A DNA stretch of 64,000 bases. It comes from Ostreococcus lucimarinus. Its lineage: Eukaryota. Location of the stretch: NCBI GenBank assembly GCA_000092065.1, contig CP000581.1. One strand, given 5' to 3'. The notes below the pieces were generated by a model, which made no database searches, was not told the DNA's origin, and worked only from the letters and a program-made list of their open reading frames with translations. Numbering within the stretch: the first letter of the stretch is position 1; the number at the start of each line of letters is the position of its first letter. Both the position numbers and the translations under genes were made by a program. Below, piece by piece: positions 31,491-57,511 of the stretch.

Positions 31491-31536
31491 CGTGTGCGGC
31501 TTCGCGCTGGGTTTCGCGTCACTGCGCGACGCCGAG

Positions 31537-33117
31537 ATGGAACCGGGAGCGATCGCGCTCGGCAAGGTGGCGCGCGCGCCGGCGCAGCCGTGCAGGGTGC
31601 GCGCTCGATCGACCGCGCGCGGCGACGACGACGACGAAGGACGAGGCGACGACGCGAACGGCGGACTGACAATTCGACATCGAACGCGTCGCGCGCCGTA
31701 GATTCTGCGCGATGACGAAGCCGCGGACGCGCTCAAGGCGAAGAAGGGTTCGCGCAGGGTGTATTGGTTCGGCGCGAGGTCCCTCGGTCACGTGGCGGAG
31801 AAGGAGTTGAAGGCGTGGGACGCGGACGCGTTCGAGGCGTCGCTGGCGGAGGTGAAACGCGGGAGGGATAAACTGGAACTCGCGCTGGAAGAGGCGAGAG
31901 CGCACGAGAACGGTGGCGGTGCGGTGAGCGTGGACGTGGGATCGACCCCAGAGGCGGTCGTGGAGACGGCGGCGAAGGAGGGGAGCGAGGCGGAGACGCC
32001 GGCGCCGGCGCCGGCGGCGAAGAAGAAGCGCGGAGGAGGCGGGCGTAAGAAAGTCATCGAGGAAGAGGAAGAGGCGGCCCCGGCGGAGGTGGCGGGAGAA
32101 GAAGAGACGCAAGCGGCGAATGATGACGTTGAAGATTACAAACCGAACGCCGAGGAGGAGGAGGCGAAGCCGAGCGGCAAGAAGCGCAAGCTCAGTAAAA
32201 AGGCTGACGGCGAAGACAAAAAGGATAAACAGCCCGCGGAGAAGAAGCCGGCGAAATCGAAAAAGGTAGAAATCGAAAAACCAGTGATCAAAGTACCGTC
32301 GAGTACACCTAGATTGTTAGAGTTGAAAACCGAGCTCGAGGATGGGCTGCAGGCGTACGAGGACACGCAAGAGCAACAAGAGCGTGCTCGATTGGAGCTT
32401 GAAAAAGCAAAGGAAGCCGTGGCTGCGGCGCAGATGAAAGTGGAGCAGGCAAATTCGCACGCCAACCGCGTCGTTCGAAGATTGAAGCAAACCGCTCGGC
32501 ATATTCAGGAGCAAAGCGTGAACCCAGTCATGTTGCAGGAAACGTTAATCACCAAAACCGTGAAAAAAGGTAGCAAGGTGAAGGATCCTTCGCTCGCAGA
32601 CTTTGCAAAGACGTGTGGAACGGTGATGGTAGAGTGGATCGAGCTTGTACGAACCTCTGCAGTGAACATGGTCGCCGTTCAGCCCGTGGAAGAGGTGAAG
32701 AAAGTGGTCAAGGAGGAAAATTCGGCGGAGGACGTGAAGATGGAAGACGCTGAAGACAAGCCCGCGACGGATTCACCTGCCAAGTTAAACTTGCCTCCGG
32801 TATTAGCGGAAACATTTGCTAAGAAGGGGTCGGTTGCCAAGCCCGCGGCTCCGGCTGCTGGCGGAGTACCTAAAGAGCCCGCGCACGACGCCACTCGTCT
32901 CCGCGTGGCACGCTACTTGGAGCAAGAGCACGGCTTATCTCGAAACGCCTCGCTCACGCTCGAAGCTGCGCTTTTCGATCAAGCGGGGGAACCAGGTATG
33001 GCGTACAAAGCCGCGCTCAAGCGCATCGTGAACCAGCCGTCCATCATGTCGTCCAACGCGCCGGCGCTCGATTCAGGCACAGTCAAACCGGCGCTCTTGC
33101 TCGCGTTTCGAGGTTAA
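31537..33117 (+). CDS. PWWP-domain protein with a charged/coiled-coil middle region, two exons: about 31537-31596 and 31702-33117
   Basis: Exon 1 MEPGAIALGKVARAPAQPCR plus exon 2 ILRDDEAADALKAKKGSRRVYWFGARSLGHVAEKELKAWD reconstitutes a PWWP domain (compare HDGF GDLVFAKMKGYPHWPARI...[23 protein letters not shown]). The 105-nt intron carries an in-frame TAG, a GTGCGCG 5' splice site and an ACTGAC branch point. Confidence 0.5.
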
Positions 33118-37283: not shown

Positions 37284-37382
37284 GGCGCGCGCGACGACGC
37301 GGCGCGCGGCGCCGTGTGCCGACGCGCGGGGCCGTTATCGTTCAAAGCGACCGGCGACGCGGCAGAGCGCGACGCGCGCGCG

Positions 37383-40300
37383 ATGCGGCGCGCGACGCCG
37401 CGCGCGCGCGAGCGTCGAGCGGCGCGCGTCGAGCGAGACGCGACGTCGAGCGACGACGACGACGACGACGACGCGCCGCGAGTGGACGATTTGTTGGTGC
37501 CGTCGTCGAGCGACGACGAAGACGAAGACGAAGGCGACGACGACGGCGGCGAGACGACGCGCGAGGCGACGCGCGACGTCGGAACGATGCCGCTGTCGCT
37601 GTCGCGATCGATCGGGGACGCGAGCGACGCGGCGGTGCGAGTGCTCGTGCGACGAGTGTCGAGACGCGCGGAGGCGTCGGCGGCGGACGAAGACGACGAG
37701 GACGACGCGAGCGCGGACGACGCGAACGAGGACGAGAGCGAAGAGGATGGTTTAGCGATCGCGGCGATGCGCGAGGCGAGGTTGCTCGCCGGAGAGCGAG
37801 GGAAGAGCGAGGTGGGGACGTCGACGGCGGACGACGCGCGAGACGAGGCGAGACGAGCGCTTCGCGCGCTGCGAGCTCGAACGGAAAAGAATAGGACGGT
37901 GGGGACGGCGGCGAGCGCGGGTGGGGTGGTAGATTTAGTGAATGTGGAGAGAGTGACGAACGCTATGATGGATACCGTCGACGCGGGGAGGGCGATGTGT
38001 TGCGCGCTGGGTCCCGGAGAACGCGTCGCCGTGGGAACGGAGGGCGGTTTTATTTTTCTCGAACGCGGCGTGAACGATGAGCGGACGGTTTCGTGCCTGA
38101 AATCGGCGAATACTTTTGCTGGAATTTCAGCCACGCCCGGGGTGACGAGTTTGTGCTTCGATGAAAGGGGTGAGTGGCTCTTGGTGGGACACGACGACGG
38201 CGGTCTCACGCTGTGGGATATCAAGCGCACGCCGACGATTTTGAAAACAATCGTCGGCGCGCATCGAACGCCCGTGATAGCGCTCGTAATGCTTTCAAAA
38301 GTGGAGTCAAACGGTGTTGTTGACGTGATATCGTCCGAGGAGGGTGGCCTCGTCATTCATCACACGCTTTCGCCTCTCGGAATGGGTGTCGTTCGAGTCA
38401 AATCGGCGTCGCTCGGCGAGCGGACGTTCGTGATAGCGGCGCACGCGCTGCCTCGAGTCGGCTCGGTGAGTGTATCAGATATTAACGCCCATGATAATGG
38501 TATCATCAGTCCTACGTACGGTGAAACGCTGAGCGCAGCGAAGAATATTGCAGACGCCGCAGGCGTTGCGGCGTTGTGCACGATGAACGCCGTGCTCATC
38601 ATGCGACTCAATCCACGAGCTGAGGTCATCGCAAAGATCGTTCGGCCGCCAAACATCGCGGCTACCGTGCTACCTGTGATGTGTTGGAGCCCGAGGTGGG
38701 CGGATGAAGTCACTACGCATGACAACGTAGAAGAATGCAATCTTGTCGTGGTATGGGGCGCGAGCGTGTACGTGCTCTCCGTCGACGTTGAATCGATCAA
38801 GCGATCGCCTGGAGAAAATGAACGAACTAAACGCGCCGCAAATACATCGCGTATCCTGAATTCGTGGAGCATCGATCCAGAAGGCGTCGTTGCGAGTGCG
38901 ATGGCGACGGCTTGGCTGTCGCAAGACTTGATTTGTGTCCTTAGTAGCCGAAACAAGCTATTTGTTTACACGTCTCATGGGCAGCTCATAGAACGTGTTG
39001 CGACGAGCGAGCCTCCGATTGCTCGTGAAATTGTACAAGCCACCGCGAGCCATGACGCTGTTTTCGAGCGTTTGCCATATTGGCATGGATCTGTCGCCGT
39101 GCGCGGCGTTCATTTCGCTATGCTATCACCTTCGAGATTACGACGCGGCAAATTTTTCGGTTGGTTCGAGCGAATGCAAGCAAAGAAGGCGGAAGGCAAC
39201 TGGGTTGGTACTTTGAACACGCTTATTGAAGTCGCATCGGATGAGCTGCCGTTGTGGCCGAGCTTGTCGAAAAAGTATGCAGATCCGGAGACTACCCGGG
39301 AAAGGGCGGTGCAAGCGTTTGTCGACGTAGTCCCACAGTTCCTTGATGAATCTTTGAACAAACGTGGTATCGACTCTGACGATGCTGCGTATTTCGAACT
39401 AATAACAAGTGTCGTTTTCGGTCTGTTGCTTGCGTTTAACGCACTGAATCAAGTGTATGCGCCGGTGGTATTCGGTGCCTTCCTAAACTCAAAATGCAAA
39501 GCGGCGTTTTTGAAAGGCATGGTGCCCCATATCTTATCGGACAAGTTGCGTTCGTTACCTGCAGAAGTGATGCAAGCGCTCGTGGAGCACTATGCTGCGC
39601 TTGATGCGGCAAATGTGATTGAACAGTGCGTTCTGCATATGGATGTAGAATCGCTTGATTTGAATCAAGTCGCTCGACTCTGCAAACATCATGGCATGTA
39701 CAGCGCGCTCGCGCACGTGTTCACGAGAGCTTTAAATGATTTCATCACACCGGTCGAAGCCATGTTTCAAGCCTCGCTGGAGCCCAAGTTTGGTGATAAA
39801 GCTCGCGTTCGACAGGTCTTGCTGTTTATTTTCAAGACTATTCAAGGCGAACAGTTTCCAACAAACGGTTGTAGATTGTCGAGCGAAATCGTTAGTCAGT
39901 TTCGAATGGAGGTGATGAAATTTCTGTTTGAGCCAGTCGATCTTAATGTGTTTACAATGAGCACGCATGATTCCGAGTCAAGTTTGAGTACCACGTGGAA
40001 CGCAGCGATGGCGCTCGCCGTACGAGAAGACGATTCATCATGTCCACCATTGCGTCTTTTGTATCTTCTTCTTGCCGAACCCAAAGCCTCGACTGTTGTG
40101 CTGACGGAAATTTTGAAAGACTGGGACGCAAGTGAGAGCGAAATACTCGCCATAGATGGCCTTCCAACCGATCGCATGGGATCTCAGGTTATTGTTGAAG
40201 CCGTGGTTTTCGCCGCCGGTGCGTGTGGTCCCGTAAATTCAGCTCCAACTCGTTCAAGACTTCTCACGTTTGCCGCAAGCATCGTCGGTACCGGCCGCGC

Positions 40301-41678
40301 CACAGTGACGCAGCAAGTTGAACGGGAGCTCTTGGAAACTTTGGCGCTCGCGAAGACGAAACATGACGTCATAGAAAGAGAGAAGGCGATGGTATCCATC
40401 ATCGGACGGCGCATAGACGAAGATATTACGTTGAATGACGAGTGTCAAATCCTCAATCTCGCGCGAGAAGCACATTTTGCTCAAGCCGAAGCCGTGATAT
40501 ACATCGCATCTGGTGATCATATCAACGCTTTGAAGGCGCTCGCCGGTGATGAGCACCGGAGAAACGCTGCTGTACATTATGTAGACGTGTGCCTTGGTAA
40601 ATCAGGTCCAGGCATCGTGCATGCAGAGCAAATGAACGCTGGACCAGCGGTGGCACGAGCGCATCCACTCGACACCGAGAGCGCCAAGGTCTTTCAAAAC
40701 GAGCTCCTTGCGATCATGCCCGTCGTCGCCGCTAAATCCGCTGATGTATGCGCTCGTATTGCAATCGCGTACTTCCCACACGCACAAGCTGAAGTTCTGA
40801 ACGCACTATCATCGGAGCCTGTCTTGCAGTTTCAATACCTGCGACAAGTTCTCGAAGCCGTGCACGAAGTTAAAGACGGCGTCGGCAGCCCTCACGACAT
40901 GAGTCTCGTGGACTTGGTGTCGGCGACAAAATCCGTCGTAACGACGGAAATGGCTGAGTTGTACTTTCGACTCATGTGTCAATTCGAACCACAAGATGTG
41001 TTGAAGTACTTAAAAAGTGAAGACGTGAAGAGTTTAGACGAAGCTCGGTGCCTTGAATACTGCCGAGAGTTCAACGTCATGGATGCTACGGCCTACTTGC
41101 TCGAGGCTGCGGGTAACTACAACGAAGCGCTCAGTATTCATCTATGCAACTACTCCACTGGTATTCGCGCGATGGCGCAGCTCTTCACGACGAGTGGGGC
41201 AGAGTGGACAAAGACTGCGCCCGCGGAGAGTTTGATGAAGGGATTCGTCATCGAGACAAACGAAGCTTTACATGTAGCCGTCGGGATGTGTAGACGCGTC
41301 TCGAGCGAAGTATCAAATAGTGAAGAAATGTGGTGGTCTTGCCTCGATAGTGTGTTCCGTTCGTTGTTAGAGCTCACGGATGGCGCTTACAAGAGAGTGC
41401 GCGATGTTCTTGACGAACACTTGGAAGATGTTTTACGAGTGATGCTCGGACGTGTAGATAACGCGCATCTTTTGGAGATGATTATCAGCCGCTACGGCGG
41501 TAGAGATATCTCCGAACTTAGAAAATTACTCACACGCGTTTTCGGAAATTGCGCACTCGAGAGAGAGTTCTTAAAATCAGAGGGATCTAGCGTTAAGCAA
41601 GAGGCAGATAAAAAAGTTCTCGAGGATTTCCAAATTCGTCGCCGCGCTCAACGAGGGACGCGGCGCACGGTTCGATAG
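37383..41678 (+). CDS. VPS8: vacuolar protein sorting-associated protein 8 (CORVET subunit) homolog
   Basis: N-terminal WD40 region (LLVGHDDGGLTLWDI). Vps8 central-domain signature LCKHHGMYSALAHVFTRALNDFITPVEAMF. Long alpha-solenoid. No C-terminal RING is visible. Start at internal ATG MRRATPRARE; the upstream part of the listed ORF is antisense to the transporter. Confidence 0.55.
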   Translation: MRRATPRARERRAARVERDATSSDDDDDDDAPRVDDLLVPSSSDDEDEDEGDDDGGETTREATRDVGTMPLSLSRSIGDASDAAVRVLVRRVSRRAEASAADEDDEDDASADDANEDESEEDGLAIAAMREARLLAGERGKSEVGTSTADDARDEARRALRALRARTEKNRTVGTAASAGGVVDLVNVERVTNAMMDTVDAGRAMCCALGPGERVAVGTEGGFIFLERGVNDERTVSCLKSANTFAGISATPGVTSLCFDERGEWLLVGHDDGGLTLWDIKRTPTILKTIVGAHRTPVIALVMLSKVESNGVVDVISSEEGGLVIHHTLSPLGMGVVRVKSASLGERTFVIAAHALPRVGSVSVSDINAHDNGIISPTYGETLSAAKNIADAAGVAALCTMNAVLIMRLNPRAEVIAKIVRPPNIAATVLPVMCWSPRWADEVTTHDNVEECNLVVVWGASVYVLSVDVESIKRSPGENERTKRAANTSRILNSWSIDPEGVVASAMATAWLSQDLICVLSSRNKLFVYTSHGQLIERVATSEPPIAREIVQATASHDAVFERLPYWHGSVAVRGVHFAMLSPSRLRRGKFFGWFERMQAKKAEGNWVGTLNTLIEVASDELPLWPSLSKKYADPETTRERAVQAFVDVVPQFLDESLNKRGIDSDDAAYFELITSVVFGLLLAFNALNQVYAPVVFGAFLNSKCKAAFLKGMVPHILSDKLRSLPAEVMQALVEHYAALDAANVIEQCVLHMDVESLDLNQVARLCKHHGMYSALAHVFTRALNDFITPVEAMFQASLEPKFGDKARVRQVLLFIFKTIQGEQFPTNGCRLSSEIVSQFRMEVMKFLFEPVDLNVFTMSTHDSESSLSTTWNAAMALAVREDDSSCPPLRLLYLLLAEPKASTVVLTEILKDWDASESEILAIDGLPTDRMGSQVIVEAVVFAAGACGPVNSAPTRSRLLTFAASIVGTGRATVTQQVERELLETLALAKTKHDVIEREKAMVSIIGRRIDEDITLNDECQILNLAREAHFAQAEAVIYIASGDHINALKALAGDEHRRNAAVHYVDVCLGKSGPGIVHAEQMNAGPAVARAHPLDTESAKVFQNELLAIMPVVAAKSADVCARIAIAYFPHAQAEVLNALSSEPVLQFQYLRQVLEAVHEVKDGVGSPHDMSLVDLVSATKSVVTTEMAELYFRLMCQFEPQDVLKYLKSEDVKSLDEARCLEYCREFNVMDATAYLLEAAGNYNEALSIHLCNYSTGIRAMAQLFTTSGAEWTKTAPAESLMKGFVIETNEALHVAVGMCRRVSSEVSNSEEMWWSCLDSVFRSLLELTDGAYKRVRDVLDEHLEDVLRVMLGRVDNAHLLEMIISRYGGRDISELRKLLTRVFGNCALEREFLKSEGSSVKQEADKKVLEDFQIRRRAQRGTRRTVR

Positions 41679-41740
41679 CTAGTTTAGGAAAATCAGAAAA
41701 GTAAAAACAAATTGCTAACATTGCTAAAGCTCGACGCGTT

Positions 41741-43024
41741 TCAATCTCCTGTTTCTTGGCGAACAAGCTTGCCAGACGGTGTTTCTGTGTAGTCGACGAC
41801 CACGTCCCCTGTTGGAATGTCAACCATCGATCGCGAGCGATGCAACCCGTTTTCAGATTCCGTATCTTCGTCAAACGACAGGCGTGGGGGCTTCCAGCCA
41901 TCTTTCACCGCCTTCGTTAAAGGTGGAACGAAGTCTTTCTTGCGGCTCACCAGGCCCGGAAGTTTCAGCATCGTTCCATCGTTCTCGAGCACTCCACTGT
42001 ACGCCGCCACGGCGAGCGAGGCCTCGACGCGTCCGCAGATCAGCAGTGTGGACGTGAGGTTGACAATGTCGACGATAGCTAGAAGCATGGCTTTCGTGGA
42101 TGGCGTCACCAACTTTACGGCGCGCATTTCCGGAAGTATATCCGCCGCTCGCGAGAGCGATGCGTCCGCATCCGTCGTCTCGATGACCGAATACGCCACC
42201 TCGTACGTCTCCTGATCACCAGTGAACTTGAACTGCTTCATATCACCGTTCACGAGTGCATACGGTGTCATCAGACTCAGCGACTGACTCTTCGCGCGAA
42301 ACTGTCGGGCTGCGAGCTCGTTCACATCCTGGACCTCTAAGTACTGCACCAGCATCGTCACGACGCGCTCATCCCACGTCGTCGTCGTTGGAGACTTCAA
42401 GTTTAGCGTGTCACTCAAAATCGCGCTAAGCAACATTCCGGCTATGTGTTTGGGCAAAAACTTCCCTTGTACCGCGTGATTATGCGCGATGATGGACGAC
42501 ATGCACCCCCACGGTCGAATGTCGACGAAAATCGGTCGCTCAGTCACGATGGTGTTCGACTGCAGCGCGTGATGATCGATAATCCCCACGATGTTCCCCA
42601 TCGGAATCGCCGGGTTCAACTGCGACTGCTGCTGAAAATCAACCAAGCAGACGTTCCTATCCGGTCGTTCCGCTAAAAGTGTCTCCACGGGTTCGGGCAG
42701 CGTCGCGCCCCACGTATCCAGCGCGAATCGCGTCTCCGTGTTCACGGCGCTCGCGACCGCCGCGCTCCCTCCGTACAGATTCGCCGCCCCGATCGCCCCC
42801 GCGACGGAATCTAAATCTGTCACCAAGTGTCCGACGAATATCGCGTCGTCCAGGCTCGGAAAGAACGCGTTCGTCTCCCCCTCGCGCGTCGGCAGGTGCG
42901 CCAGGAGTTTTTCAGCCTCCGCCCAGTTCGCGTCGACCGCGTGCTCCAGCGTCGTCTCTTCGCGCGCGCTGTACGTCTCCCGCCGCTCGCGCTTCAGCGT
43001 CATCTTCATCGACGCGATCGCGAC
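41741..43024 (-). CDS. ppaC: family II (DHH/DHHA2, Mn-dependent) inorganic pyrophosphatase-like protein
   Basis: IFVGHLVTDLDSVAGAIGAANLY (motif I/II), IIDHHAL (DHH), LSAILSDTLNLKSPTTT (DHHA2). Start set at ATG MKMTLKRERRE. The open frame continues upstream through a hydrophobic stretch AAWACVVAVAIA with no ATG, so the 5' end is uncertain. Confidence 0.5.
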   Translation of the reverse strand, partial: VAIASMKMTLKRERRETYSAREETTLEHAVDANWAEAEKLLAHLPTREGETNAFFPSLDDAIFVGHLVTDLDSVAGAIGAANLYGGSAAVASAVNTETRFALDTWGATLPEPVETLLAERPDRNVCLVDFQQQSQLNPAIPMGNIVGIIDHHALQSNTIVTERPIFVDIRPWGCMSSIIAHNHAVQGKFLPKHIAGMLLSAILSDTLNLKSPTTTTWDERVVTMLVQYLEVQDVNELAARQFRAKSQSLSLMTPYALVNGDMKQFKFTGDQETYEVAYSVIETTDADASLSRAADILPEMRAVKLVTPSTKAMLLAIVDIVNLTSTLLICGRVEASLAVAAYSGVLENDGTMLKLPGLVSRKKDFVPPLTKAVKDGWKPPRLSFDEDTESENGLHRSRSMVDIPTGDVVVDYTETPSGKLVRQETGD

Positions 43025-43267
43025 CGCGACGACGCACGCCCACGCCGCCGTTCGGCGCGGCGTCGCCGGTCGCGCGCGCGGTGTCGTAACCGCCTCGACG
43101 CTCGCGTCGGCGCGCGCGCGAGCGCGTCGCGCGCGCGAGCGCGTCGCCGTCGTCCGCGACGACGCGGCGATGACGCGTCGCGCCTCGCTCGCGCGCGCTC
43201 GAGGCGCGCGCGCGTCGCGATGTCGCGTCGTCGCCGTCCGTCGCCGCGCGTCGTCGAGCGATGCATC

Positions 43268-43290
43268 GGTCGATCGATCGATCGATCGAT
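43268..43290. repeat. (CGAT)5 tetranucleotide microsatellite in a divergent promoter region
   Basis: cggtcgatcgatcgatcgatcgatgg. Confidence 0.7.
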
Positions 43291-43326
43291 GGACGCGCGC
43301 CAGACGACGACGCGCGATGAGCCGCG

Positions 43327-44294
43327 TGGACGTGTTCCTGGAGTCGAGCGATAGTAAATACCGCGAGCGCGACGTCGTGCGCGGCGAGGTGGTGGTGCGC
43401 GTCGAACGCGAAGACGCGCCGTTCGCGCACAACGGTGTTCTGCTCACGGCGTGTGGAAACGTGCAGCTGCGCGTCGGAGACTCGAGCGTGAGCGTGCTGG
43501 AATCGCTGTTCATGGTCGTCGAACCGGTGCGCGTGCTGGACGTGTCGCTGGTGCTGGCGCCGCCGGGACGGCTGGCGGTGGGGGTGCACGCGTTTCCGTT
43601 TTCGTTCACGCTGGGGAGCTTTCCGCCGACGACGCCGATGTACGAGACGTTTCACGGGCAGAACACGCAGATAGTGTACGCGATCGATGCGGAGGTGGTG
43701 CGGCCGATCCTGCGTGGGGGGTCGCTGTCGACGGGGATGTGCGAATTTTTAGTGGAGACGAAGCCGGACGAGGACGACGTCGCCGACGCGGCGGCGAGCG
43801 AGACGATGGCGTTCGAGATCACGGAGGAGCGGCAAGATTTGGGACCGGCGCCTGGATTGTTAGCGAGCGAAGGGTTCTTGATTCGCGGATCGTTCGATAA
43901 GACGAGTTGGTTTTTAGAGGAGGCGATCACGGGGCGGCTCGTCGTCGAACGCTCGGCGGCGCCGCTCAGGGCGATCGAAATCGAGCTGTGTCGCATCGAG
44001 GGTTGCAGCACGAGCGAGGGTCAGGTGGTGAGTGAGACATCGCCCGTGCAGTTCACGCAAATCGTCGACGGCGACTGTCCGCGCGGGGTGGAGATTCCGA
44101 TACACGTCGTCATCCCGCGCCTGTTCGCGTGTCCGAGCGTGCAGGCGCCGACGTTTAGCGTCGCCTTCATGCTGCGCGTTCTGTGCGTGTTCGAGCCATT
44201 GAACCCTGGAAATAAAGAACCGGTGGCCGTTCGCGCGGTGCCAATTCAGTTATACCGAGGCGGGCCCGACATCCCGAGCGCGTTGGCGTATTAA
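43327..44294 (+). CDS. Vps26-family (arrestin-fold) protein, possibly the VPS26C/DSCR3 retriever-type
   Basis: Internal ATG MSRVDVFLESS. Vps26-like beta-sandwich: RGEVVVRVERED...VLDVSLVLAPPGRL and AIEIELCRIEGCSTSEGQVVSETSPVQFTQIVDGDCPRGVEIPIHVVIPRLFACPS (compare HMELQLIKKEITGIG...IPIRLFLAGYD). Confidence 0.5.
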
Positions 44295-49972: not shown

Positions 49973-51901
49973 CTAGTACGCGTTGGAAAACGCGGTATTC
50001 GCGCGCCCGTCGAGATGGCGAGGACTTTCACCGCTCGTCAACGCGGTGTACATGGACGGCTCCGCGGCGGGCTGTTTTGGATTCGGCGCGGCGGCGCCCG
50101 ACGCCGTCGGAGGAAGACCAGACTTCTTCGCAAGCTTGGCAGATACTTCGTACTTCATCGTCGGCTTTATGGCCATATGGAACTGCGCTTCAAGACCGGC
50201 AAAGGAGCCAAAAATCATGTCAGCCAAGGGCATGAGCATCCATTGCACTTGGCTCACGAGTTGCCACCACATTGGCGCGACGTTGCACTCGAAGTGTTCT
50301 CTGTCGTGAATGACGAAGAGACGAATGTAAAATTCACTGATGATGATGGCCCAGCACGCAAACGTCATCGGAAAGAACGCTACTACGGTGAGAGAGCGTA
50401 ACCCAATTCCAAATGGATACGTCTCGAGCACTGGGTTCGCCCAAGTCGAGCATAAACCGCCCAACATGCACGTAAACCAAAAGAGAGTCCACGAAATGTG
50501 GTGCTCCGCCGCGTGCACGTACAGCTTCATCATCCGCGTGAATGAAACCTTGTCTCGTCTCTCTAAGTAATTCATCACGATGTACGACAGATCGATCGCC
50601 CCCCAGGCGTGTCTTTTGGCTTGAATGTATCGAGCCTTAATGGCCTCATTCCATGACCGCTCTTCGATGGCATCGTTGCCCATCACCATGAAGATGGGCA
50701 CAACGCGGTAATCACCATCCTTTTTAAACCAGCACTTTAAATAGTGGTGCCAATCTTCGGGGATGATATCCACATCCCAACCACCGCACTCGATGGACGT
50801 TCTGAGACTTTGCGAATAAATCGCAAATGGGAACGGATGACTAAACGGCGACGCGAGTTGACCGAGGAAACCGACGCTATCAATCACAGCCTTGATACGA
50901 ATGAGAATCGGTACGTTCCAAATGTTCGGGAAAAAAGTCTCCGCAGCCTGGTACGTGGTGTTGTACGGCTTTGGATTTTGCACGTGATTATACGCCAAGC
51001 AGTCCATGAACTGCGAGTCAAAGTACGTATCCGCGTCGCACACCGTGAGCATAATTTGCTCCGGCGCCAATCCGCGCTTCTCCACAAACTCTCTCTTGAC
51101 GCATCGAACCGACCACGCACAGTTCGAACTTTTCCCGACCGCCTCGCCTGCGCCGAGCACGTGCTTGGTGTAATACAGTCCCAGGAGCGACGACCCGAAC
51201 TCGTCGATTAGTTCTCCCACCTTGGCCGGCGCCTCGGTGTCTCGACTCTCCGTCGCGAGTACGACGATTAATCGCTCTTTCGCACACGTCTGCGTCGCCA
51301 ACGTCCCTACAGTCTTACGCAGTGTCCCGAGAGGCTCTTTGTACGTGGGAATCACGCACACATGGATGATATCGTTAAACTTATCCGTGAGTCCGCGCTT
51401 CAACTTCCCGTCCACGCCGCTCGTCCACGTGTGCTCGTCGTCCCCAACCAACGTCGGTTTTTCGTTCGCCTTGTACACCTGTCCGGCGCCGCCAAAGAAC
51501 CTATCGTAACACGGTGATTTCAACGTTCCATCGTTTCCGAGTCGATGCCAATCCGCATCCTTATACGTGTGTAACAACGGAATCCCAACCAGCAACGCCG
51601 CGAAGCCGCTGTGAATGCCTTTCACCCACCCATAACAAATGTACGCGCAGATGAACGCCACCGTCAGCGCTGGGCTCAGGCGCGCCCCCCACAGCAAAAC
51701 AAACGTAATCAGCGTCATGCTCATCGCGAATGGCAGCGTGAACATCACCCGTTCCAACGCTCCGCCGCGGTACGCGATGTTGTCCCGAAGATCCTCGCTC
51801 GCGTCGTCGAGCAACGCGGCGTCGCCGACGTCCATCGAGCGCACTTTCGGGCGCGCGAGGGCGTCGGAGACGACCAAGCGCACTCGCGTCGATCGAGTCA
51901 T
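49973..51901 (-). CDS. polytopic family-2 glycosyltransferase (processive beta-glycan synthase-like)
   Basis: N-terminal TM helices. A cytosolic GT2 core with TVCDADTYF (DxD), ESRDTE and QAKRHAWG (QxxRW-like). C-terminal TM bundle. Family assignment is by motif only. Confidence 0.5.
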   Translation of the reverse strand: MTRSTRVRLVVSDALARPKVRSMDVGDAALLDDASEDLRDNIAYRGGALERVMFTLPFAMSMTLITFVLLWGARLSPALTVAFICAYICYGWVKGIHSGFAALLVGIPLLHTYKDADWHRLGNDGTLKSPCYDRFFGGAGQVYKANEKPTLVGDDEHTWTSGVDGKLKRGLTDKFNDIIHVCVIPTYKEPLGTLRKTVGTLATQTCAKERLIVVLATESRDTEAPAKVGELIDEFGSSLLGLYYTKHVLGAGEAVGKSSNCAWSVRCVKREFVEKRGLAPEQIMLTVCDADTYFDSQFMDCLAYNHVQNPKPYNTTYQAAETFFPNIWNVPILIRIKAVIDSVGFLGQLASPFSHPFPFAIYSQSLRTSIECGGWDVDIIPEDWHHYLKCWFKKDGDYRVVPIFMVMGNDAIEERSWNEAIKARYIQAKRHAWGAIDLSYIVMNYLERRDKVSFTRMMKLYVHAAEHHISWTLFWFTCMLGGLCSTWANPVLETYPFGIGLRSLTVVAFFPMTFACWAIIISEFYIRLFVIHDREHFECNVAPMWWQLVSQVQWMLMPLADMIFGSFAGLEAQFHMAIKPTMKYEVSAKLAKKSGLPPTASGAAAPNPKQPAAEPSMYTALTSGESPRHLDGRANTAFSNAY

Positions 51902-52191
51902 CGCTCGCGCGAGCGTGGCGGTCGCGCGCGACGACGTGTGCGGCCGCAGACGAGCCGTAACACCCTCCGGCGCGGTGACAGTCCGTGTGGCTGCGCAATC
52001 GAGTTCACGATAGAAATCGCGCGCGCGGGCGCGTCAGACTCATGCGCGGCGCTCGACGGGGCGTCCTGAACGTCTTACGCGCGACGTTTGAACTCTCCGT
52101 CGCGTCTCGAGGGGCGCTGCGTCGATACTCAGCGCGGACGCACGGTTTAATCGCGCGTACTCCGAGCGTGGAACCGACCGCGTCGAGCGCG

Positions 52192-54303
52192 ATGCGAACG
52201 AAAGTCAGCGCATCGACGGTCGCGCGCACGTTTGACGGTGCGCGGCGATGCGCGCGATCGTTCGCAACGCCGGCGCGAAGGGTGGTGACTCGAGCGGCGT
52301 CGCGCGAGGACGACAGCGAGCGGACGTATTTGCAAACTTTGAAAATTGCAAACTTTGCGTTGGTGAGCGAGCAGACGATTGAGTTTGAGAAGGGGTTGAA
52401 TGTCATCACCGGGAAGTCGGGATCGGGTAAATCGGTGCTGTTGGACGCCATCGCGCAGATTTGTGGATCACCGGCGAAGGAGGAGAGCATTCGGGCGAAC
52501 GCGGGTGGGGCGAAACTGGAGGCGACGTTTCGCGTGGCGACGGCGTCTCTCGGATCGATTTACGACATCGTGAACGATCAGATTACGTCTTTGTCCACGA
52601 AGGATGGGAAAAATGTCAAGCCGTTCGCACCGCCGAAAGAAGACGCAAATGCGTTGAATATCACGAGGGAGTTGCAGTACGTCGACTCGAGCGGGAAGAC
52701 GAAGCGCATTCGAAGCGTGTGTCGCATCAATGGCAGAGTGGTCCCACTGAAAGCACTCAAGGCTTTGGGTGAGATTCTCATGGATTTCAATGGTCAAGGC
52801 GCTGCGTCGACGCTGAGCGACGAGAACGCGCAGCTAGAGTTGTTGGATGAGTGGGCAGGCACGAAGGCGATGCGACAAAAATTTGAGCGCCTGTCCACGG
52901 AGTTGGCGGTACAGTTCAACAAGGTGAAGAACGCGGTAGAGCTCTTGCCGGGCGAGCGCGAAGAACTCGAAGCTTTGTTGGAGGAGTATTACGCAGTTGA
53001 TCCGGAGCCACTCGAAGACGTCGCCTTGAAAGCTGAACTTAGAAGGTTGGAGTCGAGCCGAGTCGCCGTGGAAATGTGCGGTTCTGTGATTTCAACCATC
53101 GCGGGCGAGCGTGGAGCGAGAGGTTTGCTTCGTGAAGCTGCGCACGAAGTGAAAGGCTTGATCGCCGCTGCCGAACGCCGCGCTGAGAGCGCGAGTTCGT
53201 CAACGCGCACCCCAGGAGATGAGGACTCAGCGTCTGAACCGGAACCAGGCCTCGACGAGGCGTCGCTGCAAGGCTTGAACGATGCGCTCGACCTCCTTTA
53301 CCAGGCCGAACAAATCTCCGAGAACGCGGAGGAGCAGGTGGGAAAGTACGCCGAAGCCCTCGCGAGCTCGCCACACCGGCGAGAGGAAGCGCAGGCACGT
53401 TTGCGCGAACTCGATAGATTGTTCAAAACGCTGCGAGTGCGAACCGCCGACGCTGCCATTGAAGCCGCTCAAGCTGCTCAGGAAAGGCTCGAAGCCGCGG
53501 AGGTGGGCGAAGAAGAACGCGAAGAAAGTATCGCGGAGTTGGATCGCTTACGCAAGGCCACCGCGGATTGTGCGTTCCAATTAGCGCTTGCTCGTCGAGA
53601 AGCCGCGGGCGCCCTCAGAGGTGCCGTCACGTCGGCTTTGACGGACCTGGAGATGGCTGGAAGCCGATTCGACGTCACTCTTTCGTGGACTGCGCGCGAG
53701 GGAGCGAGTGAGGATACGAATGGAAACGTTTTGCGCGTCCCGAGAGCGAGCGAAATCGGTGAAGACGACCATCTTGTCTTTGCGGTGCGTCCGACTGGTT
53801 TGGATCGCGCGACGTTTTTGCTCGCCGCCGGACAAAACGAACCGCTCCGACCGATGGCGTCGATCGCTTCCGGTGGTGAAAAGGCTCGATTAATGCTCGC
53901 ATTGAAAATGGCTCCAGTCATGACGGATGATTACGCGAGCACGCGCGCTAATCGAGAGCTCGCGAGCGGTGGCATCTCCGTCTTTGACGAAGTCGACAGC
54001 GGCGTCGGCGGTCGCGTCGGCGCTCGCATCGGCCACGCCCTTCGTCGCCTCACCACCACGGGCTCGCAGCAAGTTTTGTGTGTCACCCATCTCCCTCAAG
54101 TCGCCGCGTGCGGCGATACCCACCTCATAGTTTCCAAATCACCCGACGACGACGCCGACGGTCGCACCACCATCGACATCCGCCGCATCGATTCTCGCGA
54201 CTCTCGCGTCGAGGAAATCTCCCAAATGCTCGGCATCGGCGACGTCGAGGGTCGCGAGAGCGCCAACAGACTCGTCGACGAGGCCGTCGCCGCGTTTTCC
54301 TAA
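52192..54303 (+). CDS. recN: bacterial-type DNA repair protein RecN (SMC-like) with an organellar presequence
   Basis: Walker A LKIANFALVSEQTIEFEKGLNVITGKSGSGKSVLLDAIAQICG. A central coiled-coil. C-terminal signature ASGGEKARLMLALK and Walker B ISVFDEVDSGVGG...VLCVTHLPQVAACGDTHLIV. Start at internal ATG MRTKVSAST after an Arg-rich leader. Confidence 0.65.
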   Translation: MRTKVSASTVARTFDGARRCARSFATPARRVVTRAASREDDSERTYLQTLKIANFALVSEQTIEFEKGLNVITGKSGSGKSVLLDAIAQICGSPAKEESIRANAGGAKLEATFRVATASLGSIYDIVNDQITSLSTKDGKNVKPFAPPKEDANALNITRELQYVDSSGKTKRIRSVCRINGRVVPLKALKALGEILMDFNGQGAASTLSDENAQLELLDEWAGTKAMRQKFERLSTELAVQFNKVKNAVELLPGEREELEALLEEYYAVDPEPLEDVALKAELRRLESSRVAVEMCGSVISTIAGERGARGLLREAAHEVKGLIAAAERRAESASSSTRTPGDEDSASEPEPGLDEASLQGLNDALDLLYQAEQISENAEEQVGKYAEALASSPHRREEAQARLRELDRLFKTLRVRTADAAIEAAQAAQERLEAAEVGEEEREESIAELDRLRKATADCAFQLALARREAAGALRGAVTSALTDLEMAGSRFDVTLSWTAREGASEDTNGNVLRVPRASEIGEDDHLVFAVRPTGLDRATFLLAAGQNEPLRPMASIASGGEKARLMLALKMAPVMTDDYASTRANRELASGGISVFDEVDSGVGGRVGARIGHALRRLTTTGSQQVLCVTHLPQVAACGDTHLIVSKSPDDDADGRTTIDIRRIDSRDSRVEEISQMLGIGDVEGRESANRLVDEAVAAFS

Positions 54304-54493: not shown

Positions 54494-57400
54494 ATGGAGC
54501 GCGCGGAGAGCCCGCCGCGCGCGCGGCGAACCTCCGTCGACGGCGGACGCATGGGAAGCCCGCGAAACAGCCAAGACCTGAGCGGCACGCTCGCGTCGTC
54601 GCCGCTGAGGAACTTGCACGCCGACTCCGAGGCTGGACGACTGGCGCGCGCGTCCATGAGCTCGCTCACGGGCGCCGTGGCCAGCCGAGGCTCGATCGAT
54701 GACTTGCGACAACGCATGGAGACGATCGGGACGCCCGCGACCGTGGCCGCGGGGGCGGGAGCGAACGCGGGGGAGATTGAAACCACGCGCGTCGATCGGT
54801 TGTTGCGCGAACGCGAGCAGATGCGAAAGACTCGATCGCAGACGAATCTGAACGCGAGCGATGAGGGCGATGATTTTGATGGTGAATCCGTTGGACGCGT
54901 GCAGTCCCTCATCATCGCGGCGAATCGATTGCCGATCAGTGTGAAGAAGAAGCCGGACGGGACGTGGGATCTTCGGACGTCGGCGGGCGGACTGGTGAGC
55001 GCGCTGTTGGGCGTACGAAAGACGTACGACATGACGTGGATTGGATGGCCGGGGGTGTTCGTAGAAGAGGGACCCGATCGCGACGCGCTCACGGCGACGT
55101 TACGTAAGCAGAACTTCTTGCCGGTGTACTTGACGAAGACGCAAGTCGAGCTGTATTACAATGGGTACTGCAACAATGTGCTGTGGTCGCTGTTTCACTA
55201 CGTGCCGCTGAGTTTCGAAGCCAAGCTCAGCGAAGATACGAACATGCACGCGCAATGGTTGGCTTATAAGGAAGCCAATCGCGCGTTTAGCGATGCCATC
55301 ATGAGCGTGTATCGCACAGGGGACGTCGTCTGGGCGCACGATTACCATTTGATGCTCGTGCCGCAAATGTTGCGAGCGTACGAAGATAGCATGAAAATTG
55401 GTTGGTTTCTGCACACGCCGTTTCCGAGTTCGGAAATTTACCGAATGTTGCCGATGAGAGAAGAGCTGTTGCACGGGTGTTTGGCGGCTGATCTCGTTGG
55501 CTTTCACACGTACGATTACGCGCGGCACTTTGTATCGGCGACGAGCCGAATTCTTGGTTTAGAGGCGACACCCGAGGGCGTGGAAAATAACGGGAGCTTT
55601 ACGCGTGTTGCGGCGTTTCCCATCGGTATCGATCCGGGTCGCTTCACCTCGGCTCTACGCACAAATGAGGTGCAGGTGCACATTAACGAGCTCCGCGAAC
55701 GCTTCCGAGGTCGCAAAGTCATGCTCGGTGTCGACCGTCTCGACATGATCAAGGGTATCCCGCACAAGTTGTTGGCGTTTGAGAAATTTTTGAGTGAGAA
55801 TCCTGATTGGGCGAATAAGGTGATTCTCATCCAGATCGCCGTGCCGACTCGCAGCGACGTTCCGGAGTACCAACGACTCGCCTCGCAAGTGCACGAACTT
55901 GTTGGGAGAATCAACGGCCGTTTCGGCTCCATCGGGAGCGTTCCGATTCAGCATTTGGATTGTACTATGCAGTTTCCTGAGCTTTGCGCGCTTTATGCAG
56001 TTACAGACGTCATGCTCGTCACTTCTCAGCGCGACGGTATGAACCTCGTCTCTTATGAGTTTGTTTCGTGCCAAAGCAAGAACGACGCCGGCGTGTTGGT
56101 TCTATCCGAATTCGCGGGCGCCGCGCAGTCTATCGGCGCTGGGGCTCTTTTAGTGAACCCGTACAACGTCACCGACGTCGCAAGCGCCATTAAAGACGCG
56201 TTAACGATGCCTGAAGTGGAAAAGATTGAGCGACACAGAAGCAGCTTCTCGCACGTGAGCATTCACACTTCGCAAGCGTGGGCGGACACGTTCATCAGTG
56301 AACTCAACGACACGCACGTCGAAGCAGAATTACGTCAAAAGCGTATTCCGCCGCATCTCAAGCCCGAAGCGATGGTCAAATCGTTTCAAATGGGTAAAGA
56401 ACGGCTCATCATTCTGGGCTACAACGCCACACTCACCGATCCCATGGAGAGCAAGACCAAGATACGGCCGAAGCTCGAGTCGCAGAAGAGTCGTCACAAG
56501 ATTCATCCGGTCGCACAGGAGTGCCTCACGCGCCTGTGCGATGATCCTAATACCACTGTTTGTATCTTCAGCGGTTCCGAGCGCAACAAGTTGGCGCAAA
56601 TCTTTGCGATGTTGCCCAAGGTTTGGATCGCGGCGGAAAATGGCGTTTTTATTCGACCACCACTTCAAGGCAAGAACGGCACCGACACTCCAAAGTGGCT
56701 GACCATGATTGAGACTACGAATTTGGACTGGTTGGAGAGCGTTGAAGTCGTTTTTGAGTACTTTTGTGAGCGTACTCCGAGAAGTCACGTGGAGATGCGC
56801 GAAACGTCGCTGGTGTGGAGTTACAAGTACGCCGATCCGGACTTTGGTCGTCAACAAGCGCGCGACTTGCTACAGCACTTATGGACTGGCCCGATTTCGA
56901 ATGCTCCCGTGGATGTCATCATGGGTGCAAAGTCTGTCGAAGTGCGTCCGGTCGGCTTGAGCAAGGGAACCGCAGTCGAGCGCATCGTGCAAATGATCGG
57001 CGGACACGGCAAAGAACTCATTGAAGTCGATTTCGTCGCGTGCTGCGGTCACTTCTTAGGCCGTGACGAGGATATCTTCTCGTTCTTGGAGATGAAGTCT
57101 TTGCCTCCGGAGGATCAGTTGCCAGCTGTGCAAACTTCGCCGGGATCTCCCATCAAAATGAACAGCGCCGTCGGCATTTCCAGCCCGATTGCGGGCGACC
57201 CTGATTCCGACGACGAAAAGAAAGAAGCCGATATTCGATTCCACGACGTCTTCACCTGCACCGTTGGACGCAAACGTTCGAGTGCTCGGTACTACGTGAA
57301 CGATTCCGACGAGATTGCGCAGTGTCTCGCAGCCCTGACGAACAGCTTGAACGACGGAAAAGGCTTCATCGAACTCTTGCAGTTTGAGGACTCGTTGTCG

Positions 57401-57511
57401 AGCGCTCCTTCGATGAGCAGCTCTAGAAACAACTTACGCGAACGAATCGGGAGTTTACCCCTCGTCAACGAGAAGGAGGTCTTTCGAACCTCAAGCGGAC
57501 AGAGCATTTAA
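54494..57511 (+). CDS. TPS: trehalose-6-phosphate synthase/phosphatase fusion (GT20 TPS domain plus TPP domain)
   Basis: IIAANRLPISVKK, NNVLWSLFHYVP, VWAHDYHLMLVPQMLR, GFFLHTPFPSSEIYR, MLGVDRLDMIKG. The C-terminal TPP region LIILGYNATLTD...VWIAAENGVF also fits. Single 1005-aa ORF with ATG start. Confidence 0.85.
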   Translation: MERAESPPRARRTSVDGGRMGSPRNSQDLSGTLASSPLRNLHADSEAGRLARASMSSLTGAVASRGSIDDLRQRMETIGTPATVAAGAGANAGEIETTRVDRLLREREQMRKTRSQTNLNASDEGDDFDGESVGRVQSLIIAANRLPISVKKKPDGTWDLRTSAGGLVSALLGVRKTYDMTWIGWPGVFVEEGPDRDALTATLRKQNFLPVYLTKTQVELYYNGYCNNVLWSLFHYVPLSFEAKLSEDTNMHAQWLAYKEANRAFSDAIMSVYRTGDVVWAHDYHLMLVPQMLRAYEDSMKIGWFLHTPFPSSEIYRMLPMREELLHGCLAADLVGFHTYDYARHFVSATSRILGLEATPEGVENNGSFTRVAAFPIGIDPGRFTSALRTNEVQVHINELRERFRGRKVMLGVDRLDMIKGIPHKLLAFEKFLSENPDWANKVILIQIAVPTRSDVPEYQRLASQVHELVGRINGRFGSIGSVPIQHLDCTMQFPELCALYAVTDVMLVTSQRDGMNLVSYEFVSCQSKNDAGVLVLSEFAGAAQSIGAGALLVNPYNVTDVASAIKDALTMPEVEKIERHRSSFSHVSIHTSQAWADTFISELNDTHVEAELRQKRIPPHLKPEAMVKSFQMGKERLIILGYNATLTDPMESKTKIRPKLESQKSRHKIHPVAQECLTRLCDDPNTTVCIFSGSERNKLAQIFAMLPKVWIAAENGVFIRPPLQGKNGTDTPKWLTMIETTNLDWLESVEVVFEYFCERTPRSHVEMRETSLVWSYKYADPDFGRQQARDLLQHLWTGPISNAPVDVIMGAKSVEVRPVGLSKGTAVERIVQMIGGHGKELIEVDFVACCGHFLGRDEDIFSFLEMKSLPPEDQLPAVQTSPGSPIKMNSAVGISSPIAGDPDSDDEKKEADIRFHDVFTCTVGRKRSSARYYVNDSDEIAQCLAALTNSLNDGKGFIELLQFEDSLSSAPSMSSSRNNLRERIGSLPLVNEKEVFRTSSGQSI

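What the first reader, a model, noticed from the sequence alone, without database searches (positions are those of the whole stretch)
52192..54303. Bacterial-type RecN (SMC-like recombination-repair ATPase) encoded in a eukaryotic nuclear genome with a presequence
Full-length RecN architecture is present: N-terminal Walker A, about 400-aa coiled-coil, then the signature and Walker B (ASGGEKARLMLALK...DEVDSGVGG...CVTHLPQVAA). RecN is characteristically bacterial. An intron-free nuclear copy with an Arg/Ser/Thr-rich leader suggests an endosymbiont-derived organellar DNA double-strand-break repair factor. This is not a standard component in most eukaryote annotations.
Basis: partly seen in the sequence, partly recalled or inferred. 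Interest (0 to 1): 0.5.

Follow-up and report, generated by a model that had tools for sequence, protein, structure and literature searches.

The report
Green-algal nuclear RecN with organelle-type leader
This is a real, intact, selectively maintained copy of the bacterial DNA-break-repair ATPase RecN in the nuclear genome of an Ostreococcus green alga; it belongs to a RecN clade found only in green algae among named hits, all carrying an N-terminal leader, already named in databases but never studied, and it does not look cyanobacterial or mitochondrial in origin.

Summary
Window 52192-54303(+) encodes a 703-aa protein, or 753 aa from a conserved upstream ATG at 52042. It matches the RecN model TIGR00634 end to end (E 9.6e-88) but scores below the curated cut-off. 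All ATPase motifs are intact. An AlphaFold model has a split head, a coiled coil of about 260 aa and no hinge, and its best solved match is Deinococcus RecN.

It is not contamination. The neighbours are eukaryotic genes, and GC/GC3 match those neighbours. The gene order cyclophilin/GT2/RecN/TPS-TPP is kept in O. tauri (with NOG1 next as well) and in a 44%-identical relative. dN/dS is about 0.07, and another relative has a GT-AG intron.

The O. tauri orthologue is already annotated as recN. Homologues form one clade (100% NJ bootstrap) whose named members are all chlorophyte or streptophyte algae. No land plant or non-green eukaryote was seen.

Nearly all complete-looking models carry a fast-evolving, mostly basic Ser/Thr/Ala-rich leader that bacteria lack. 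Organelle targeting is therefore plausible but untested.

An endosymbiont origin is not supported. Cyanobacteria were never sister (0/200) and alphaproteobacteria almost never. Chloroflexota-type RecNs are closest, with a composition caveat.

Verdict: a new member of a known kind, of modest interest.

The parts
51985..54303 (+). Whole open reading frame (772 codons from a GTG). The real start is one of the two in-frame ATGs below.
52042..52044 (+). Upstream in-frame ATG giving a 753-aa product. The first residues MRGARRGVL recur as MRGARAGVL in an 86%-identical species and as MRSGARGFV upstream in frame of the O. tauri model. It is therefore a plausible true start.
52192..52323 (+). It has 11 R/K and 10 S/T, and four of its five acidic residues lie in the last six residues. 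In the model residues 1-38 have pLDDT below 50. It is 36% identical to O. tauri, against 85% for the mature part. No bacterial RecN has such a leader.
52324..52863 (+). N-terminal half of the ATPase head (aa 45-224). It contains Walker A TGKSGSGKS (52408-52434) and the Q-loop FNGQGA (52786-52803). Small clade-specific insertions lie around aa 136-152 and 163-172.
52864..53646 (+). Antiparallel helical coiled coil (about aa 225-485). A disordered acidic loop STRTPGDEDSASEPEPGLD (53200-53256) sits near its midpoint, and I infer that this is the apex. There is no hinge domain and no CxxC hook.
53647..54300 (+). C-terminal half of the head (aa 486-703). It holds the signature IASGGEKA (53863-53886) and a clade-specific insertion MAPVMTDDYASTRANRELASGG (53908-53973) between the signature and Walker B. 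It also holds Walker B/D-loop ISVFDEVDSGVG (53974-54009) and the H-loop LCVTHLPQVAA (54076-54108).
54301..54303 (+). TAA stop codon.
49973..51901 (-). Divergently transcribed neighbour, a family-2 glycosyltransferase-like protein. It is part of the conserved gene order.
54494..57511 (+). Downstream neighbour, a trehalose-6-phosphate synthase/phosphatase fusion (Glyco_transf_20 plus Trehalose_PPase). It is part of the conserved gene order.

Best explanation
The gene is a functional, nuclear-encoded member of the RecN family. RecN proteins are SMC-like ABC ATPases with a split head and a short antiparallel coiled coil. This one belongs to an old, vertically inherited clade whose named members are all green algae.

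Shown here: RecN identity and architecture, intact ATPase motifs, nuclear chromosomal context, conserved gene order, strong purifying selection on the mature part, and an N-terminal leader shared by nearly all complete-looking models of the clade.

Inferred: the leader is a cleavable presequence that delivers the protein to the plastid, the mitochondrion or both. There the protein would dimerise and bind and hydrolyse ATP. It would load onto DNA at double-strand breaks and help the organellar RecA recombinase find and invade the homologous genome copy, as bacterial RecN does.

On origin, the gene most likely entered the common ancestor of green plants from a bacterium that was neither the plastid nor the mitochondrial ancestor. 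Chloroflexota-type RecNs are the nearest relatives. No land-plant copy was detected, which suggests loss on the way to land plants.
For: RecN identity:
- TIGR00634 E 9.6e-88, end to end.
- Pfam SMC_N and AAA_23.
- The best PDB sequence and fold matches are D. radiodurans RecN, ahead of SMC, cohesin and Rad50 heads.
- Across 33 aligned algal and bacterial RecNs the catalytic residues are invariant: Walker A G74/G77/G79/K80/S81, signature S560/G562/E563, Walker B D599/E600, D-loop D602 and H-loop H633. Q-loop Q202 is conserved in at least 90%.
- The AF2 model has pLDDT 83.4 and shows the head plus coiled-coil architecture.

Nuclear and old:
- The neighbours are Vps8, RPC5, NOG1, PHD, FAST/RAP and TPS-TPP proteins.
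- The same gene order occurs on a 1.13-Mb O. tauri scaffold and, through TPS-TPP, in a 44%-identical relative.
- GC is 0.594 and GC3 0.667, like the neighbours.
- A 120-nt GT..AG segment is present in one relative's genomic contig and exactly absent from another contig.

Functional:
- For the mature part dN is 0.10 and dS 1.54. For the leader dN is 0.83.

Clade:
- It is monophyletic in 100/100 and 200/200 NJ bootstraps.
- Named members are Ostreococcus, Chlorokybus, Mesostigma, Spirogloea, Myrmecia, Bryopsis, Edaphochlamys, Astrephomene, Tetradesmus, Coccomyxa and Trebouxia.

Leader:
- Nearly all complete-looking models have 33-293 extra N-terminal residues, whereas bacterial RecNs start at the domain.

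Mechanism by analogy:
- RecN stimulates RecA strand invasion, loads topologically on DNA, drives RecA filament translocation and co-evolves with its own RecA (PMC5442325, PMC6856136, PMC9674259, PMC13235916).

Origin.
Against: - No localisation predictor or experiment was available, so the compartment, and even organellar targeting itself, is unproven.
- The TIGR00634 score (295.5 bits) is below the curated equivalog cut-off (407.85). The clade also carries four insertions, including one near the middle of the coiled coil (the inferred apex, where bacterial RecN dimerises) and one between the signature and Walker B. The mode of action may therefore have changed.
- The Chloroflexota affinity rests on neighbour-joining trees and identity ranking, with uneven sampling. 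The amino-acid composition of the algal clade is closest to Chloroflexota (distance 0.137, against 0.246 for cyanobacteria). Compositional or long-branch attraction cannot be excluded.
Confidence: 0.62

Rival explanations
1. The gene arrived by endosymbiotic gene transfer. On this view it descends from the RecN of the cyanobacterial plastid ancestor (or the alphaproteobacterial mitochondrial ancestor), and its apparent distance from those groups is an artefact of fast evolution after transfer.
For: RecN is a near-universal core repair gene in cyanobacteria (PMC5101192). Among named hits the clade is restricted to plastid-bearing green lineages. The algal clade sits on a long branch, only 26-40% identical to any bacterial RecN, so the deep placement is weakly resolved. 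The immediate sister reached at most 22% support in the large tree.
Against: Cyanobacteria were never sister to the clade in 200 bootstraps, and under Dayhoff-6 recoding they appeared only inside large mixed sister groups. Sister groups including alphaproteobacteria appeared in 4/200 or fewer. The sampled cyanobacterial RecNs (Nostocales plus one unclassified) rank 170-190 of 192 bacterial sequences by identity to the clade. No cyanobacterial-type representative could be recognised among the top 150 of the exhaustive profile search. Alphaproteobacterial RecNs match only the C-terminal head, at E 1e-11 to 1e-14. No red-algal or glaucophyte member was seen.
Confidence: 0.22
2. The protein has been recruited to a nuclear or cytosolic role, for example an extra SMC-like factor in nuclear break repair. 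On this view the N-terminal extension is a disordered linker or regulatory region rather than a targeting peptide.
For: Localisation is untested. The clade has its own insertions and scores below the RecN equivalog cut-off. Several leaders (Spirogloea, Coccomyxa viridis, Mesostigma) have at least as many acidic as basic residues, although those gene models may be wrong.
Against: The Ostreococcus leader is basic, Ser/Thr/Ala-rich, disordered and fast-evolving, as presequences are. Bacterial RecN works through its cognate RecA (PMC5442325, PMC13235916). From general knowledge, RecA-type recombinases in green plants are organellar.
Confidence: 0.13
3. The gene is bacterial contamination, a misassembly, or a very recent transfer that is not a working alga gene.
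For: The protein family is otherwise bacterial.
Against: Eukaryotic genes flank it on both sides in one 64-kb window. The same gene order occurs on a 1.13-Mb O. tauri scaffold and in a more distant relative. GC and GC3 are like the neighbours. dN/dS is about 0.07. A relative carries a GT-AG intron. The best bacterial identity is only about 34%.
Confidence: 0.01

Closest known systems
Bacterial RecN (for example D. radiodurans RecN, PDB 4ad8/4aby/4abx; E. coli RecN)
   Same: It matches the RecN HMM end to end. It has the same split ABC-type head with all catalytic motifs, a short antiparallel coiled coil and no hinge. These are the best sequence and fold matches.
   Different: It is only 26-34% identical to bacterial RecNs and scores below the curated equivalog cut-off. 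It has an N-terminal leader of 44-94 aa. It also carries four clade-specific insertions:
- in the N-terminal half of the head;
- an acidic loop in the coiled coil;
- before the C-terminal half of the head;
- between the signature motif and Walker B.
The Q-loop context is NGQGAAS instead of HGQHEH. The gene is encoded in a eukaryotic nucleus with no operon or SOS context.
Ostreococcus tauri 'DNA repair protein recN' (NCBI/UniRef; P0007) and the UniRef 'DNA repair protein RecN' entries of Myrmecia, Edaphochlamys, Astrephomene and Coccomyxa
   Same: The O. tauri protein is the orthologue: 81% identity and the same flanking genes. The others belong to the same monophyletic algal clade.
   Different: The window comes from another Ostreococcus species. 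It is 99% identical only to metagenome and JGI sequences. These database names are automatic, and I found no paper that discusses or tests an algal RecN.
Nuclear-encoded bacterial-type organellar recombination proteins of green plants (RecA, RecG)
   Same: The general pattern is the same: a bacterial recombination or repair protein encoded in the nucleus with an N-terminal extension. RecG is likewise reported in plants and green algae but not in other eukaryotes (PMC3542137).
   Different: RecN has no detected land-plant copy and shows no cyanobacterial or alphaproteobacterial affinity. Its localisation is unknown.
Eukaryotic/archaeal Rad50 and SMC proteins
   Same: They share the ABC-type head fold and the coiled-coil principle. 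Foldseek finds their heads at E 1e-10 to 1e-16.
   Different: HMM matches to Rad50 and SMC cover only the ~45-aa P-loop region, at E 1e-5 to 1e-8. The coiled coil is much shorter, and there is no hinge and no CxxC zinc hook.

Membership tests
RecN (TIGR00634 / NF008121) | Whole-protein score at or above the curated equivalog cut-off of the RecN model | tested here: not met
   TIGR00634 scores 295.5 bits against a cut-off of 407.85. NF008121 scores 199.9 against 418. RecN is nevertheless by far the best family (E 9.6e-88) and the match covers profile positions 2-562 of 563. This makes it a divergent member rather than a non-member.
RecN (TIGR00634 / NF008121) | Split ABC/SMC-type ATPase head, with Walker A at the N terminus and Q-loop, signature, Walker B, D-loop and H-loop residues all intact | tested here: met
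   The motif residues G74, G77, G79, K80, S81, S560, G562, E563, D599, E600, D602 and H633 are invariant across 33 algal and bacterial RecNs. Q202 is conserved in at least 90%. Motif coordinates were verified.
RecN (TIGR00634 / NF008121) | Short antiparallel coiled coil between the head halves, with no SMC hinge and no Rad50 zinc hook | tested here: met
   The AF2 model (pLDDT 83.4) has helices over aa 225-485 that fold back on each other, and a disordered loop at 337-355. No CxxC occurs in the sequence. About 50 aa in the middle of the coiled coil (the inferred apex) have no counterpart in bacterial RecN.
RecN (TIGR00634 / NF008121) | Head fold closest to solved RecN structures rather than to other SMC-like heads | tested here: met
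   Foldseek against the PDB gives 4ad8 at E 1.3e-21 (TM 0.74 on the target) and 4aby at 5e-18. The best SMC head is 5xei at 3.8e-16, and Rad50 heads are at about 1e-11.
RecN (TIGR00634 / NF008121) | Nearest bacterial relatives are RecN proteins | tested here: met
   Every bacterial hit that carries a name is called RecN.
RecN (TIGR00634 / NF008121) | ATP-dependent DNA tethering or loading, and stimulation of RecA-mediated double-strand-break repair | not testable with these tools
   This is a biochemical and genetic property, known for bacterial RecN (PMC5442325, PMC6856136, PMC9674259).
Eukaryotic Rad50 / SMC | Full-length similarity, a long coiled coil, and a hinge or zinc hook | tested here: not met
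   Rad50, SMC and SbcC models match only aa 46-102. There is no hook or hinge.
Organelle-targeted nuclear gene product (presequence or transit peptide) | N-terminal extension absent from bacterial homologues that is basic, hydroxylated, poor in acidic residues, unstructured and poorly conserved | tested here: met
   The leader is 44-94 aa, with 11-20 R/K and 10-20 S/T. Residues 1-38 have pLDDT below 50. It is 36% identical to O. tauri, against 85% for the mature part. Extensions occur in nearly all complete-looking algal models, and bacterial RecNs start at the domain.
Organelle-targeted nuclear gene product (presequence or transit peptide) | Predicted by a trained targeting predictor, or shown experimentally to be in an organelle | not testable with these tools
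   No TargetP or PredAlgo-type tool was available, and no localisation data were found in the literature library.
Endosymbiotic gene transfer from the plastid (cyanobacterial) or mitochondrial (alphaproteobacterial) ancestor | The eukaryotic clade branches within or as sister to cyanobacteria or alphaproteobacteria | tested here: not met
   In NJ bootstraps cyanobacteria were sister in 0/200, and sister groups including alphaproteobacteria appeared in 4/200 or fewer. Chloroflexota-type sequences were in the sister group in about 128/200 (about 107/200 after Dayhoff-6 recoding). Identity ranking agrees. These are distance methods only, and a composition caveat applies.
Endosymbiotic gene transfer from the plastid (cyanobacterial) or mitochondrial (alphaproteobacterial) ancestor | Present in the other primary-plastid lineages (red algae, glaucophytes) | tested here: inconclusive
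   All named members are Viridiplantae. About half of the eukaryote-clade representatives come from unnamed metagenome or transcriptome assemblies.

The most novel reading that the evidence does not exclude
RecN was acquired once, by horizontal transfer from a Chloroflexota-like bacterium, in the common ancestor of green plants. It was fitted with a targeting leader and co-adapted to an organellar RecA of different (endosymbiont) ancestry. Every major green-algal lineage then kept it under strong selection, and it was lost when plants moved to land. Green-algal organelles would then repair double-strand breaks with an SMC-like cohesion or homology-search factor that land-plant organelles lack.
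Probability: 0.3. Interest if true: 0.5.

Novelty: new member of a known kind. Interest (0 to 1): 0.35.

Why it matters
Organelle genomes of algae are highly polyploid and recombine actively, yet the known nuclear-encoded toolkit (RecA, RecG, MutS-type proteins and others) has no SMC-like factor.

A conserved RecN with a leader, found across green algae and not detected in land plants, would add such a factor. It would also give a testable candidate for how RecA finds a homologous genome copy in a plastid or mitochondrial nucleoid. O. tauri can be transformed and supports gene targeting, so the test is practical.

The apparently non-endosymbiont ancestry is also a small, clean case for the debate on how much of the 'bacterial' gene set of plants came from donors other than the two endosymbionts.

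The identity of the protein is ordinary, and the gene is already named in databases.

Tried and rejected
- Contamination or misassembly: rejected by the flanking eukaryotic genes, the conserved gene order, GC3 and dN/dS.
- Rad50/SMC identity: rejected.
- Literature: nine searches combining RecN with Ostreococcus, Micromonas, Chlamydomonas, chloroplast, plastid, organelle, algae or SMC found no paper on an algal or eukaryotic RecN. The hits were 'RecName' strings, bacterial partners in co-culture, or the Pfam domain name of the flagellar protein FAP59.
- Genome-collection scan: it was driven by two short motifs (QQVLCVTH, LN[VI]ITG[KQ]SG) and capped at 600 matches. It returned mostly Pyrinomonadaceae and other Acidobacteriota plus a few Nostocales. 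It gives names, not an unbiased sample.
- A group of unnamed representatives clustered near the cyanobacterial loci in the first tree. By BLAST they proved to be only about 40-45% similar to Chloroflexota or Acidobacteriota references, so I did not count them as cyanobacteria.
- No maximum-likelihood tree program was installed, so only neighbour-joining with Kimura-corrected and Dayhoff-6 distances was run.
- Choosing between plastid and mitochondrion from leader composition alone was considered and dropped as unreliable for prasinophyte-type leaders.
Full report
WHAT IS THERE. An uninterrupted ORF runs from 51985 to 54303 on the + strand. It has two in-frame ATGs. The stop is TAA at 54301-54303.
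- Walker A TGKSGSGKS (aa 73-81).
- Q-loop FNGQGA (199-204).
- Signature IASGGEKA (558-565).
- Walker B/D-loop ISVFDEVDSGVG (595-606).
- H-loop LCVTHLPQVAA (629-639).

IDENTITY. Against NCBIfam the protein matches the RecN equivalog model TIGR00634 from profile position 2 to 562 of 563 in one stretch, at E 9.6e-88 and 295.5 bits. That is below the curated cut-off of 407.85. Rad50, SMC, SbcC and RecF models match only the ~45-residue P-loop region. Pfam gives SMC_N and AAA_23. The best solved-structure sequences are D. radiodurans RecN 4ad8/4aby, and Rad50 follows only through the P-loop.

An AlphaFold2 model built on 33 aligned sequences has mean pLDDT 83.4 and pTM 0.66. Its parts are:
- a disordered N terminus (residues 1-38, pLDDT below 50);
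- an N-terminal head half (about aa 45-224);
- helices over about aa 225-485 that form the coiled coil, with a disordered acidic loop at 337-355 near its midpoint;
- a C-terminal head half (aa 486-703).

Foldseek against the PDB ranks the D. radiodurans RecN structures first (4ad8 at E 1.3e-21, target TM 0.74). SMC, cohesin, condensin and Rad50 heads rank lower. The Walker A, signature, Walker B, D-loop and H-loop residues are invariant across the 33 sequences, and the Q-loop glutamine is conserved in at least 90%. The protein is therefore predicted to be an active ATPase.

NOT CONTAMINATION; AN OLD NUCLEAR GENE.
- The window is eukaryotic throughout. It encodes Vps8, RNA polymerase III subunit RPC5, NOG1, a PHD-finger protein, a FAST/RAP protein, an LRR kinase, a cyclophilin and a TPS/TPP fusion.
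- The closest named protein is O. tauri 'DNA repair protein recN' at 81% identity. The window is 99% identical only to metagenome and JGI sequences, so it comes from another Ostreococcus species.
- On the 1.13-Mb O. tauri scaffold KZ155838.1 the order cyclophilin(-)/GT2-like(-)/RecN(+)/TPS-TPP(+)/NOG1(-) is the same as in the window. A relative only 44% identical keeps cyclophilin/GT2/RecN/TPS-TPP.
- Gene GC (0.594) and GC3 (0.667) are like the neighbours.
- Against O. tauri the mature region has dN 0.10 and dS 1.54, so dN/dS is about 0.07 with dS near saturation. The leader has dN 0.83.
- In another relative a genomic contig (L090) has a 120-nt segment, GTAAGG...GCGCAG, at 5870-5989. It is exactly absent from a second contig (L091). 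This is a canonical spliceosomal intron or an intron presence/absence polymorphism.

DISTRIBUTION. I searched a profile of Mamiellales sequences against 1.84 billion representative proteins. About 30 clusters score between the Ostreococcus sequences and the best bacterial RecNs. Every member that carries an organism name is a green alga:
- Streptophyte algae: Chlorokybus, Mesostigma and Spirogloea.
- Chlorophytes: Myrmecia, Trebouxia, Coccomyxa, Bryopsis, Edaphochlamys, Astrephomene and Tetradesmus.

One member is an MMETSP transcript, so a homologue is transcribed in a cultured alga. No land plant and no non-green eukaryote appeared, including in a profile search seeded with the streptophyte and chlorophyte sequences. 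About half of the representatives are unnamed, so absence elsewhere is likely but not proven. The clade is monophyletic in 100/100 and 200/200 neighbour-joining bootstraps. Its internal branching roughly follows green-plant groups.

THE LEADER. Bacterial RecNs begin directly with the domain, with Walker A at residues 29-30. Nearly all complete-looking algal models have 33-293 extra N-terminal residues. The Ostreococcus leader is rich in Arg, Ser, Thr and Ala. Four of its five acidic residues lie just before the domain. It is disordered in the model and 36% identical between two Ostreococcus species, against 85% for the mature part. These are the usual properties of organellar presequences, but I had no predictor and found no localisation data.

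The start codon is uncertain. The O. tauri model uses the equivalent of the second ATG. However, the upstream ATG and its first residues (MRGARRGVL, MRGARAGVL, MRSGARGFV) are conserved in frame in three species.

ORIGIN. Bacterial RecNs are only 26-40% identical to members of the algal clade.
- In the exhaustive search the top bacterial representatives are Chloroflexota-type. P0264 has the highest mean identity to the clade, and its named relatives are Dehalococcoidia, Anaerolineae and Thermoflexus. In the 219-sequence tree set, 53 of the 140 P-numbered sequences are at least 45% identical to named Chloroflexota RecNs.
- The sampled cyanobacterial RecNs (Nostocales plus one unclassified) rank 170-190 of 192.
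- Alphaproteobacterial RecNs match only the C-terminal head, at E 1e-11 to 1e-14.
- I built a balanced 78-sequence NJ analysis that added Sinorhizobium, Paracoccus, Sphingomonas, E. coli, Listeria and Parabacteroides RecNs. Chloroflexota-type sequences were in the sister group in about 128/200 bootstraps, and in about 107/200 after Dayhoff-6 recoding. Cyanobacteria were sister in 0/200. Sister groups including alphaproteobacteria appeared in 4/200 or fewer.

There are caveats. These are distance methods only, the sampling is uneven, and the immediate sister is unresolved in the large tree (at most 22%). The algal clade's amino-acid composition is also closest to Chloroflexota. I conclude that an endosymbiont origin is not supported. 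Horizontal acquisition from another bacterium before the split of chlorophytes and streptophytes is the better reading, and the donor is only tentatively Chloroflexota-like.

HOW IT MOST LIKELY WORKS. Shown here: a RecN fold with a competent ATPase site, kept under strong selection, in the nucleus, with a presequence-like leader. Inferred from bacterial RecN:
- It stimulates RecA strand invasion (PMC5442325).
- It loads topologically onto ssDNA and dsDNA (PMC6856136).
- It drives RecA filament translocation during homology search (PMC9674259).
- It co-evolves with its own RecA (PMC13235916).

By that analogy, after import the protein would dimerise, bind ATP, load at resected breaks in organellar DNA and help the organellar RecA pair the break with another genome copy. 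The clade-specific insertions may reflect adaptation to a RecA of different ancestry. They are the acidic loop near the middle of the coiled coil and the 22-aa insert between the signature and Walker B. This is speculation.

NOVELTY. The gene is already named recN by automatic annotation in O. tauri and several other algae. I found no paper that mentions or tests an algal or eukaryotic RecN. It is a divergent new member of a known family, and the interesting points are its distribution and ancestry rather than its mechanism. Interest is modest (0.35).

Noticed in passing
Its first residues (MRGARRGVL) are conserved in an 86%-identical species (MRGARAGVL) and upstream in frame of the O. tauri gene model (MRSGARGFV). 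The annotated start of the O. tauri gene may therefore be too far downstream.
   Followed up: partly
L090 5870-5989 versus L091 around 1456: A Mamiellales relative of this gene has a 120-nt in-frame GT..AG segment in a genomic contig that is exactly missing from another contig. Prokaryote-style gene callers read through it, which produces the 991-aa 'protein' P0015. Whether L091 is a transcript assembly or an intron-less strain could not be determined.
   Followed up: partly
P0217, P0224, P0229, P0232 (Chlamydomonadales-type homologues): The Chlamydomonadales versions are very long (1140-1873 aa), with N-terminal extensions of 222-293 aa in the two measured (P0224, P0217), rich in Ser, Ala and Pro. 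P0369 (Coccomyxa C-169) and P0376 carry unrelated Pfam domains (PF13640/PF13661, and Myb plus methyltransferase), which probably means merged gene models.
   Followed up: no
window 41741-43609 (-): A 622-aa ORF has DHH and DHHA2 domains (the RecJ/exopolyphosphatase-like phosphoesterase family) preceded by about 250 residues with no Pfam match.
   Followed up: no
window 29712-31736 (-): A 674-aa ORF has FAST kinase-like and RAP domains. From general knowledge this domain type is linked to organellar RNA metabolism. It is unrelated to the finding.
   Followed up: no
window 38001-42000: GC drops to 0.51-0.52 here, against about 0.61 for the window, inside or next to the long Vps8-like ORF (36717-41678).
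   Followed up: no
window 49973-51901 (-) and 54494-57511 (+): The RecN gene is wedged between a GT2-type glycosyltransferase and a TPS/TPP fusion. The gaps are short, 140-290 bp upstream and 190 bp downstream. The arrangement has stayed intact across Mamiellales genera even though the proteins have diverged to 44% identity.
   Followed up: yes
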